A DNA stretch of 19,156 nucleotides from a virus (IMGVR_UViG_2548876862_000001:1-19156), one strand, 5' to 3'. Counted from the first letter of the stretch, positions 16,160-16,258 are shown. The notes: generated by a model not told the origin, from the sequence alone. Program-made: numbers and translations.

Positions 16160-16180
16160 TAGTTCACCATAAAAAATTCA

Positions 16181-16209
16181 TTGACTCATACTGAGTGTGA
16201 GTGAATAAT
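16181..16209 (+). promoter_or_regulatory. Candidate sigma70 promoter for the arc-like/antirepressor operon
   Basis: TTGACT (16181-16186), 17-bp spacer, AATAAT (16204-16209). The spacer holds the imperfect inverted repeat ACTCATACTGAGTGTGAGT (16184-16202) and a tandem TGAGTG TGAGTG. Confidence 0.45.
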
Positions 16210-16258
16210 CAAACTACAAAAAGTGAGATTATGAGTTTTTCAAAAACAGGAGTGCATA

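What the first reader, a model, noticed from the sequence alone, without database searches (positions are those of the whole stretch)
16160..16258. Divergent control region with operator-like symmetry and repeats
A near-consensus promoter (TTGACT, 17 bp, AATAAT) points toward arc. Its spacer holds an imperfect 19-bp inverted repeat (ACTCA...TGAGT), which is where the Arc operator sits in P22 Pant. There is also a tandem TGAGTG TGAGTG, two more TGAG copies at 16223-16235, and a perfect 13-bp palindrome GTTTTTCAAAAAC (16235-16247) just before the arc SD. Three repressors (CI-like, Arc-like, Mnt-like) could act here.
Basis: seen in the sequence. Interest (0 to 1): 0.5.

Follow-up and report, generated by a model that had tools for sequence, protein, structure and literature searches.

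The report
Antirepressor promoter-operator region, P22-like prophage
This 99-bp gap is the on/off switch of a prophage "second immunity" cassette: a strong promoter for an Arc-like gene and antirepressor genes, studded with TGAGT repeats that are probably binding sites for the neighbouring CI-type repressor. It is a variant of the phage P22 immI region, not a new kind of system.

Summary
The window is a P22-like (Lederbergvirus) E. coli prophage of the "HS-1" type, and 16160-16258 lies in its "ant moron".

The same cassette occurs in about 50 distinct versions across Enterobacterales phages: a CI-like repressor gene, a 96-102 bp gap in the closer relatives (shorter in some distant ones), a 57-aa ribbon-helix-helix (RHH) gene, then an antirepressor.

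- **Conserved.** In the 14 representatives scanned, the plus-strand promoter sits 23-31 nt from the repressor start codon (23-25 in the closer 12). In 17 non-redundant cassettes, TGAGT/ACTCA words recur: one inverted copy over the -35, and direct copies in the spacer and at about +8 to +21.
- **Not conserved.** The 13-bp palindrome GTTTTTCAAAAAC is found only in this window's own type.
- **Mnt homologue.** Nothing ties it to this region.
- **Who binds the repeats.** Repeat identity follows the recognition helix of the CI-like protein (VQRQ with ATGAGT, SQRQ with ATGAAGT, VQRM with ATGCAGT) across different RHH ribbons. I therefore favour the CI-like repressor, acting in place of Mnt, over the Arc-like protein.
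- **Unresolved.** The RHH operator and the CI-like gene's own promoter.

Verdict: a real regulatory region and a new variant of a known kind, of modest interest.

The parts
15518..16159 (-). CI-like repressor gene (213 aa): 434-type HTH plus a lambda-CI-like S24 C-terminal domain, with the catalytic Ser replaced by Ala (GEAM)
   Evidence: Pfam HTH_3 48.4 bits and Peptidase_S24 47.9 bits. PDB matches to 434 repressor and the lambda CI C-terminal domain; lambda VEGNSM aligns with IEGEAM, and the Lys is retained.
16164..16168 (-). Ribosome-binding site of the CI-like gene (GGTGA on the minus strand)
   Evidence: Read from the sequence. An equivalent CACC block is conserved in the cassettes.
16181..16209 (+). 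Sigma-70 promoter TTGACT-17-AATAAT driving the RHH-antirepressor operon (the Pant analogue). The start site is inferred near A16216.
   Evidence: It is the best plus-strand promoter in all 14 representatives, 23-31 nt from the CI start codon (P22: 25 nt). TTGAC is invariant in alignment A6.
16184..16189 (-). Site 1: ACTCAT, an inverted copy of ATGAGT overlapping the -35
   Evidence: ACTCATA pairs with TATGAGT 16230-36. The same pairing, with changed flanking letters, occurs in other cassettes.
16191..16202 (+). Sites 2a and 2b: CTGAGT and GTGAGT filling the promoter spacer (the P22 O_arc position)
   Evidence: A copy in the same position occurs in L032 (ATGAGG) and L083 (TTGAGT). Site 2a varies within type A (CCGAGT, GTGAGT) while 2b is invariant.
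16223..16236 (+). Sites 3a and 3b: GTGAGA-TT-ATGAGT, 8 bp apart, at about +8 to +21 of the inferred transcript
   Evidence: The GAG of site 3a is invariant in the 10-cassette alignment. TATGAGTTTT (16230-39) is the only block besides the -35 and the ribosome-binding site shared by types A, B and C.
16235..16247 (.). Palindrome GTTTTT-C-AAAAAC, specific to type A; function unsupported
   Evidence: The centre varies C/T within type A, and the palindrome is absent from types B and C and all other cassettes.
16248..16432 (+). Ribosome-binding site AGGAG and a 57-aa RHH (Arc-like) gene, the first gene of the operon
   Evidence: Pfam ParD_like E 8e-4 and Arc E 0.011, both below cut-off. A 12-sequence profile hits Arc, AmrZ and Mnt chains at E 0.001-0.2. 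hhalign against P22 Arc gives E 1e-4, probability 55%.
16433..16520 (-). sar-like antisense RNA with its extended -10 promoter (TGcTACAAT), opposite the antA ribosome-binding site and start codon
   Evidence: The fold has z -5.2: two hairpins and a U run. It aligns with the P22 sar/Psar region. There is a weak SymR-like hit.
16506..17946 (+). Two antirepressor genes: antA 16506-17132 (BRO-N + P22_AR_C) and antB 17221-17946 (phrog_1726)

Best explanation
Positions 16160-16258 are the promoter-operator hub of an immI-like "ant moron" cassette in a P22-like E. coli prophage.

- **Promoter (shown by conservation).** A strong sigma-70 promoter, TTGACT-17-AATAAT with its start inferred near 16216, transcribes an Arc-like RHH gene and two antirepressor genes.
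- **Repressor and sites (inferred).** The divergently encoded CI/434-type repressor, with a Ser-to-Ala S24 domain, takes the role Mnt has in P22 and keeps this promoter shut in the lysogen. It would do so by binding reiterated (N)TGAGT hexamers: one inverted copy over the -35 (16184-89), two copies filling the spacer (16191-16202), and two copies at about +8 to +21 (16223-36). Occupancy would occlude RNA polymerase binding and early elongation.
- **Other layers (inferred).** The Arc-like RHH protein presumably gives negative feedback as Arc does, but its operator is not identified. A sar-like antisense RNA adds a third layer downstream.

My internal split for who binds the TGAGT sites: CI-like about 0.55, RHH about 0.25-0.3, both or other for the remainder.
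For: - **Context.** The genes in order are gp16-like, sieA-like, CI-like (minus strand), RHH, antA, antB, Mnt homologue (minus strand), tailspike. The region is 97.7-98.8% identical to phage JEP4 and to E. coli HS-type prophages.
- **Cassette conservation.** The arrangement CI-like, a 96-102 bp gap in the closer relatives (shorter in some distant ones), 57-aa RHH, then an antirepressor recurs with CI only 35-47% identical. It is found in Yersinia, Klebsiella, Providencia, Tatumella, Xenorhabdus and Morganella genome records, and in viral and metagenome contigs.
- **Promoter.** Position and strength are conserved in all 14 representatives. The geometry matches P22 Pant, and the ribosome-binding sites are similar, TGAGGTGAATA(A)TG.
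- **TGAGT/ACTCA enrichment.** It is enriched within the window and across cassettes.
- **Long-range inverted pair.** The -35-overlapping copy and a downstream copy recur with changed letters: ACTCATA/TATGAGT, ACTCAAT/ATTGAGT, ACTCATT/AATGAGT, CATATGAA/TTCATATG, ACTTCAT/ATGAAGT. Self-pairs score 6.41 against 6.00 for cross-pairs, permutation P=0.033.
- **Repeat identity tracks CI helix 3, not the RHH ribbon.**
  - SQRQ goes with ATGAAGT in 6 cassettes spanning 3 ribbon types.
  - VQRQ goes with ATGAGT across ribbons KPRQVRF, KPISYRPS and NPMQLRIP.
  - L124 (VQRM) has ATGCAGT, whereas L126 and L190 (SQRQ) have ATGAAGT. L124 and L126 have nearly identical RHH proteins (3 differences in 58 residues), and L190 has the same ribbon.
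- **Polymorphism within type A.** Variable positions fall outside the -35, site 1, site 2b, the -10 and sites 3a/3b.
Against: - There are no binding or transcript data.
- A lambda/434-type dimer is expected to bind 14-18 bp dyads. Here the copies are mostly direct repeats, and the spacing between the inverted and direct copies varies (gaps of 3, 9 and 25-45 bp in the pairs listed). That calls for flexible or monomer-like site recognition.
- The site-tracks-CI argument rests on a handful of lineages and is confounded by linkage and shared ancestry.
- My earlier idea that the base 5' of TGAGT follows the variable helix-3 residue (P with T) failed when L183 and L185 were added.
- In L032, L081 and L114, site 3 sits inside a local dyad (CGCA-TGAGTNNN-TGCG), so TGAGT may be an operator centre there rather than a half-site.
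- Types A, B and C share both the RHH protein and the CI helix 3, so their shared TATGAGTTTT does not discriminate between the two.
- The CI-like gene's own promoter was not found.
Confidence: 0.55

Rival explanations
1. The TGAGT/ACTCA boxes are the operator of the Arc-like RHH protein. This is the first reader's view for the spacer repeat: an O_arc-like site between -35 and -10, plus a ParG-like array of 4-bp boxes downstream. The CI-like repressor would bind something else.
For: - The spacer position equals that of P22 O_arc.
- RHH proteins bind short, degenerate boxes in direct or inverted orientation. ParG binds ACTC boxes separated by 4-bp AT-rich spacers in an array downstream of the -10 (PMC3413123).
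- GAGA-TTAT-GAGT (16225-36) fits that format. So do the 8-bp tandems in L033, L080, L030 and L038.
- TATGAGTTTT is the only block shared by types A, B and C, which share the RHH protein.
- L083, L183 and L185 share the RHH ribbon and CAATGAGTA although their CI helix 3 differs.
Against: - Identical or nearly identical RHH ribbons occur with ATGAAGT, ATGCAGT and ATGAGT repeats. Each repeat type occurs with several ribbons and follows CI helix 3.
- The spacers of types A, B and C are unrelated despite the same RHH protein.
- Only one box pair in the window has ParG-like 8-bp spacing; the other spacings are 6, 9 and 26 bp.
Confidence: 0.25
2. A third operator is present: the palindrome GTTTTTCAAAAAC (16235-47), or ATAATC-N16-GATTAT (16205-32), is bound by the downstream Mnt homologue or by the RHH protein. 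On this view three repressors converge here.
For: The arms are perfect 6-bp repeats and stay intact within type A while the centre varies C/T. The RHH operator is otherwise unassigned.
Against: - The palindrome is absent from types B and C, which have the same RHH protein, and from all other cassettes.
- In shuffles of the interval, a 6-bp arm is not unusual (P=0.15).
- There is no second copy in the window.
- The Mnt homologue is equally present in a prophage (L088) with a classical mnt|arc cassette whose control region lacks this palindrome.
Confidence: 0.08
3. The paired ACTCAT...ATGAGT arms act at the RNA level, as a stem in the leader of the CI-like mRNA or a 5'-UTR hairpin of the RHH mRNA. 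Alternatively, the repeats are only promoter-associated composition with no repressor binding.
For: A paired change of both arms would fit either RNA pairing or recognition by one protein. Local dyads flank the downstream TGAGT in several cassettes.
Against: - The left arm overlaps the -35, so it lies outside the plus-strand transcript.
- No conserved minus-strand promoter lies to the right of the right arm.
- The arms are only 6-7 nt long with 25-45 nt between them.
- No Rfam family matches.
- Enrichment and positional conservation argue against mere composition.
Confidence: 0.07

Closest known systems
Phage P22 immI control region (Pant/Pmnt with O_arc and O_mnt, then arc, ant and sar)
   Same: - It lies in the same genome slot, between the gene-16 homologue/sieA and the tailspike gene.
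- A strong promoter sits about 25 nt from the divergent repressor's start codon.
- A small RHH gene comes first in the operon, followed by the antirepressor.
- A homologous sar-type antisense RNA lies at the RHH/ant junction.
- The ribbon gene's ribosome-binding site is similar in the wider cassette family.

   Different: - The divergent maintenance repressor is a 434/lambda-type HTH-S24 protein, not the RHH tetramer Mnt.
- There is no sequence similarity to O_arc (ATGATAGAAGCACTCTACTAT) or O_mnt (GGTCCACGGTGGACC).
- Operator-like elements are reiterated TGAGT hexamers rather than two dyads.
- No clear Pmnt-like overlapping promoter is present.
- There are two antirepressor genes.
- An Mnt homologue sits at the far end of the operon, next to the tailspike gene.
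Lambda/434/P22-c2 type CI repressors and their dyad operators
   Same: The domain architecture is the same: an HTH_3 N-terminal domain and an S24-fold C-terminal domain that aligns with the lambda CI C-terminal domain. The gene is divergent from the operon it presumably controls.
   Different: - The catalytic Ser is Ala in this protein.
- By eye I saw no canonical Ala-Gly cleavage site in it or its relatives.
- The candidate sites are mostly direct repeats with variable spacing, not tandem 14-18 bp dyads.
- It controls an antirepressor operon, not the lytic early promoters.
ParG (plasmid TP228) O_F operator: an RHH array of ACTC boxes
   Same: It also uses short GAGT/ACTC-type boxes, in direct or inverted orientation, some with 4-bp AT-rich spacers, located at and downstream of the -10 (PMC3413123).
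   Different: Only one pair in the window has the invariant ParG spacing. The RHH ribbon differs (KPRQVRFT against KRVNVNFD). Box identity follows the HTH protein, not the RHH ribbon.
Repressor-controlled antirepressor modules outside P22 (186 Tum under LexA, Gifsy antirepressors); from my own knowledge, with Lemire et al. 2011 seen only as a reference
   Same: An antirepressor gene is held off by an S24-family or LexA-type repressor and acts in trans on the main prophage repressor.
   Different: Here the repressor is phage-encoded, adjacent and divergent, and paired with an Arc-like gene. There is no LexA box in the region.

Membership tests
P22-type immI / 'ant moron' | Located between the gene-16 (DNA transfer protein) homologue/sieA and the tailspike gene of a P22-like genome | tested here: met
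   The 613-aa DNA-transfer homologue, a SieA-like protein (phrog_7745, E 7e-109) and the tailspike start at 18364 are all present. The 'ant moron' concept is described in PMC2629481.
P22-type immI / 'ant moron' | Strong sigma-70 promoter driving a small RHH gene followed by an antirepressor | tested here: met
P22-type immI / 'ant moron' | The first gene encodes an Arc-family RHH repressor | tested here: inconclusive
   Pfam Arc E 0.011 (16 bits against a cut-off of 20.4) and ParD_like E 8e-4. The profile hits Arc and AmrZ chains in the PDB at E 0.001-0.04. hhalign against Arc gives 55% probability. The AF2 monomer gave a single long helix and is uninformative.
P22-type immI / 'ant moron' | The divergent maintenance repressor is Mnt (an RHH tetramer) with a dyad O_mnt at +1 | tested here: not met
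   The divergent gene is an HTH_3 + S24 protein. There is no O_mnt-like dyad. The classical arrangement is seen instead in L088, with TTGGTTCTAGAACCAA.
P22-type immI / 'ant moron' | sar antisense RNA across the ant ribosome-binding site | tested here: met
   By homology and fold only. No transcript data are available.
P22-type immI / 'ant moron' | Overlapping divergent promoter for the maintenance repressor (Pmnt geometry) | tested here: inconclusive
   Only a weak candidate exists, read by eye: TTGATT-16-TATGAG, about 6.5 bits on the scoring scheme (hand-computed). No conserved minus-strand promoter was found across cassettes.
Lambda/434-type CI repressor-operator systems | HTH N-terminal domain plus S24 C-terminal domain | tested here: met
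Lambda/434-type CI repressor-operator systems | Ser-Lys catalytic dyad for RecA-stimulated self-cleavage | tested here: not met
   Ser is replaced by Ala (GEAM) and the Lys is retained. Most relatives keep the Ser.
Lambda/434-type CI repressor-operator systems | Two or three adjacent dyad-symmetric operators of 14-18 bp | tested here: not met
   There is only ACTCA-N3/N9-TGAGT; the other copies are direct repeats.
RHH box-array operators (ParG-like) | Multiple 4-bp boxes at a fixed 8-bp period with AT-rich spacers | tested here: not met
   One pair fits (16225-36). The other spacings are 6, 9 and 26 bp. The definition comes from PMC3413123.
Any repressor-operator system | Direct protein-DNA binding and repression | not testable with these tools
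   This needs EMSA or footprinting and reporter assays.

The most novel reading that the evidence does not exclude
A lambda/434-type repressor with a non-catalytic S24 domain does not use dyad operators here. Instead it reads an array of asymmetric heptamers: one inverted over the -35, the others direct through the spacer and the first ~20 transcribed bases. Its specificity would be re-programmable by one or two residues at the start of helix 3 (V/S-Q-R-Q/M matching ATGAGT, ATGAAGT or ATGCAGT). Together with a cryptic Arc-like protein it would form a portable second-immunity switch that has replaced Mnt in many Enterobacterales phages.
Probability: 0.3. Interest if true: 0.55.

Novelty: new variant of a known kind. 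Interest (0 to 1): 0.35.

Why it matters
- **An old puzzle.** Villafane et al. 2008 (PMC2629481) noted that the HS-1 and CUS-3 "ant morons" seem to lack arc, and so must control their antirepressor differently from P22.
- **What this analysis adds.** The HS-1 type does carry a diverged Arc-like gene. Mnt is replaced by a CI-type repressor, and the whole unit is a conserved, mobile cassette with a recognisable operator word.
- **Why it is testable.** It yields concrete predictions: binding sites, a start site and specificity residues. These bear on how prophages in E. coli and related bacteria gate antirepressor-driven induction and cross-talk between prophages.
- **Limits.** It does not overturn anything known.

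Tried and rejected
- **Rfam.** No hit at gathering thresholds over the whole window. A permissive scan of 16100-17300 gave only a weak SymR-like match on the sar-like RNA.
- **RHH structure.** The AF2 monomer of the RHH protein was one long helix, so I ran no fold search.
- **CI-like gene's promoter.** A PWM scan of the minus strand in 14 cassettes found no conserved position.
- **Variable helix-3 residue and the base 5' of TGAGT.** The idea that P goes with T, Q/H/A/T with A and R with G looked good at first. L183 and L185 (P with ATGAGT) broke it (L084/L118 and L109 also looked inconsistent), so I dropped it.
- **The 13-bp palindrome as a conserved operator.** Rejected.
- **Operator of the Mnt homologue.** The Mnt/tailspike gap is nearly invariant among relatives, and the repeat search found no dyad there, only one palindrome inside the tailspike gene.
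- **LexA box.** None in the region.
- **ATG at 16231.** It opens an 11-codon upstream ORF in type A, is in frame with the RHH gene in types B and C, and is absent from several other types. I judged it incidental.
- **Literature.** No experimental study of this cassette turned up.

Full report
**Observation.** The 99-bp interval 16160-16258 lies between the start codon of a minus-strand gene (CAT at 16157-59) and the ATG at 16259 of a 57-codon gene.
- TTGACT 16181-86, a 17-nt spacer, AATAAT 16204-09. This matches 10 of 12 positions and is the best promoter match in 15400-18500.
- ACTCA 16184-88, paired with TGAGT 16192-96 (N3) and with TGAGT 16198-16202 (N9).
- Tandem TGAGTG at 16192 and 16198; TGAG at 16224 and 16232.
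- GTTTTT-C-AAAAAC at 16235-47, then AGGAG 16248-52.

Within this interval the palindromes are not unusual in shuffles (P about 0.1-0.15). The four TGAGT/ACTCA copies are: 0.24 are expected (Poisson 1e-4), and no other 99-bp stretch of the 19-kb window reaches four.

**Context.** The window is a P22-like (Lederbergvirus) E. coli prophage. It is 97.7% identical to phage JEP4 and 98.6-98.8% identical to prophages of E. coli HS and other strains. The genes, in order, are:
- a gene-16-type DNA transfer protein;
- SieA-like (minus strand);
- a 213-aa HTH_3 + Peptidase_S24 protein (minus strand, 15518-16159);
- the control region;
- a 57-aa RHH protein (16259-16432);
- antA, BRO-N + P22_AR_C (16506-17132);
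- antB, phrog_1726 (17221-17946);
- an Mnt homologue (minus strand, 17973 to about 18231/18260);
- the tailspike gene, from 18364.

This is the "ant moron" of Villafane et al. 2008. They wrote that the HS-1 type appears to lack arc and must control its antirepressor differently from P22 (PMC2629481).

**The two proteins.**
- *CI-like protein.* Its N-terminus resembles 434 repressor and its C-terminus resembles the lambda CI C-terminal domain. Lambda VEGNSM aligns with IEGEAM, so the catalytic Ser is Ala while the Lys is kept. Most relatives keep the Ser.
- *57-aa protein.* It is RHH-like only below family cut-offs: Arc E 0.011 and ParD_like E 8e-4. A 12-sequence profile finds Arc, AmrZ and Mnt chains at E 0.001-0.2. 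hhalign against P22 Arc gives E 1e-4 and 55% probability. An AF2 monomer model was uninformative. I treat it as a probable diverged Arc-family protein.

**A conserved cassette.** Searches with either protein recover the same unit: a CI-like gene, a 96-102 bp gap in the closer relatives (shorter in some distant ones), a 57-aa RHH gene ending in ...KGxxxIQ, then an antirepressor gene where I checked. It occurs in viral contigs, metagenomes and genomes of Yersinia, Klebsiella, Providencia, Tatumella, Xenorhabdus and Morganella, with the CI-like protein down to about 35% identity. About 50 distinct intergenic sequences were collected.

**Comparison with P22.** In all 14 representatives scanned, the best plus-strand promoter starts 23-31 nt from the CI start codon (23-25 in the closer 12). 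In P22, Pant starts 25 nt from the mnt start. In the annotated P22 record, O_arc fills the Pant spacer, O_mnt covers the start site, and Pmnt overlaps Pant on the other strand. The RHH gene's ribosome-binding site in most cassettes, CATGAGGTGAATAATG, resembles that of P22 arc, TGAGGTGAATATG. The cassette is therefore architecturally a relative of immI, with the Mnt gene replaced by a CI-type gene.

**A natural swap.** One E. coli prophage (L088) has a classical mnt|arc pair, with the palindrome TTGGTTCTAGAACCAA just after the -10. It sits in front of the same antA, antB and downstream Mnt homologue, and the exchange boundary falls at the end of the arc/RHH gene. This shows that the downstream Mnt homologue is not specific to the CI|RHH control region.

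**What is conserved in the control region.**
- In 17 non-redundant cassettes the top pentamer is TGAGT/ACTCA. It is present in all 17 and occurs twice or more in 9, a level no pentamer reached in 300 shuffles.
- One copy is inverted and overlaps the -35 (TTGACTCAT). Direct copies lie in the spacer in some cassettes, and one or two lie 13-23 nt after the -10 in nearly all.
- The inverted copy and a downstream copy change together: ACTCATA/TATGAGT (window, type C), ACTCAAT/ATTGAGT (L033), ACTCATT/AATGAGT (L083), CATATGAA/TTCATATG (type B), ACTTCAT/ATGAAGT (L085, L086). Self-pairs beat cross-pairs modestly, 6.41 against 6.00 of 9 positions, P=0.033.
- In the window the copies are ACTCAT 16184-89, CTGAGT 16191-96, GTGAGT 16197-16202, GTGAGA 16223-28 and ATGAGT 16231-36.
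- Within type A, variable positions are 16174, 16190-92, 16215-16 and 16241. The -35, site 1, GTGAGTG, the -10 and GTGAGATTATGAGTTTTT are invariant.
- The palindrome GTTTTTCAAAAAC exists only in type A. TATGAGTTTT is the only block, apart from the -35 and the ribosome-binding site, shared by types A, B and C.

**Who binds the repeats?** By analogy with P22, the spacer repeat would be the Arc-like operator. RHH proteins can read short boxes in either orientation: ParG reads ACTC boxes with 4-bp AT-rich spacers downstream of the -10 (PMC3413123). Three observations point instead to the CI-like protein.
1. Types A, B and C have RHH proteins 81-91% identical, with the same ribbon, yet their spacers are unrelated.
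2. Repeat identity follows the start of the CI recognition helix across different RHH ribbons:
   - G-V-S-Q-R-Q goes with ATGAAGT in six cassettes spanning three ribbon types.
   - G-V-V-Q-R-Q goes with ATGAGT across ribbons KPRQVRF, KPISYRPS and NPMQLRIP.
   - L124 (VQRM) has ATGCAGT, whereas L126 and L190 (SQRQ) have ATGAAGT. L124 and L126 have nearly identical RHH proteins (3 differences in 58 residues), and L190 has the same ribbon.
3. In those swaps the repeats lie nearer the RHH gene, so simple linkage would predict the opposite association.

There are caveats.
- The lineages are few and related.
- A 434-type dimer would be expected to use dyads, whereas most copies here are direct repeats with variable spacing.
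- In L032, L081 and L114 the downstream TGAGT sits inside a local dyad.
- A finer correlation I first saw, between the variable helix-3 residue and the base before TGAGT, collapsed with more data.

**Mechanism proposed.**
- *Shown:* a conserved strong promoter faces the RHH-antirepressor operon. Operator-like words that are conserved, enriched and partly change together cover its -35, its spacer and positions +8 to +21.
- *Inferred:* in the lysogen the CI-like protein occupies these sites and blocks RNA polymerase, as Mnt does in P22. When the promoter fires, the RHH protein feeds back negatively, as Arc does. An antisense RNA limits antA translation.
- *Not resolved:* the RHH operator and the promoter of the CI-like gene. 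Only weak, non-conserved candidates exist for the latter, including a Pmnt-like TTGATT-16-TATGAG that I read by eye.

There is no LexA box in the region, and no evidence that the Mnt homologue acts here.

**Novelty.** I found no experimental work on this cassette. It is a new variant of a known kind: an immI-type antirepressor switch with a CI-type repressor in place of Mnt and a diverged Arc. For a specialist the interest is modest. It answers an old remark about HS-1-type ant morons and gives testable sites and specificity residues.

Noticed in passing
window 16433-16520 (minus strand): A sar-like antisense RNA lies opposite the antA ribosome-binding site and start codon. It has an extended -10 (TGcTACAAT, 16520-16512), two hairpins and a U run. 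MFE is -33.8 kcal/mol, z -5.2. It aligns with the P22 sar/Psar region. No Rfam family reached its gathering score; the only weak match is SymR-like (21.8 bits).
   Followed up: partly
window 17148-17261 (minus strand): A possible second antisense RNA lies opposite the antB start (17221). A promoter-like GTGACA-17-TACATT is at 17261-17233 and a terminator-like hairpin at 17185-17159. The fold is only marginal, z -2.0.
   Followed up: partly
window 15518-16159 (minus strand): The CI-like repressor has GEAM where lambda CI has GNSM, so the catalytic Ser is Ala while the Lys is kept. Most cassette relatives keep the Ser. By eye I saw no canonical Ala-Gly cleavage site in any of them (for example L033 PVLTHVQAR against lambda PVFSHVQAGMF, the lambda sequence recalled from memory). 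This suggests a repressor that does not self-cleave.
   Followed up: partly
window 17973-18260 (minus strand) and 18232-18363: An Mnt homologue (SKPSPVSGYRDEEERLA, like P22 Mnt as I recall its sequence, but with a different ribbon, AQFHLRL) is convergent with the antirepressor genes and adjacent to the tailspike gene. It is also present in a prophage with a classical mnt|arc cassette (L088). Its target is unknown, and the gap to the tailspike gene is nearly invariant among relatives.
   Followed up: partly
L088 2223-2333 (E. coli Z1323CEC0012 prophage): This is a natural cassette swap. A classical 106-aa Mnt-like gene and a 57-aa Arc-like gene, with the perfect palindrome TTGGTTCTAGAACCAA just after the -10, replace the CI|RHH unit upstream of the same antA. 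The recombination boundary is at the stop codon of the arc/RHH gene.
   Followed up: yes
window 16231-16266: The ATG inside the conserved TATGAGTTTT opens an 11-codon upstream ORF (MSFSKTGVHND) that overlaps the RHH start in type A. In types B and C the same ATG is in frame and gives 69-aa RHH forms that gene callers sometimes annotate. This is probably incidental.
   Followed up: partly
L085, L086, L120, L122-L124, L126, L190 (distant cassettes): In the distant cassettes the repeats are heptamers (ATGAAGT, ATGAGTT or ATGCAGT) in tandem at a 10-bp period straddling the -10, usually with an inverted copy near or upstream of the -35. In L190 and L123 the inverted and first direct copies form an 18-19 bp dyad centred on the -35. 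A/T-CTCT words recur in the CI-proximal leader of most of them.
   Followed up: partly
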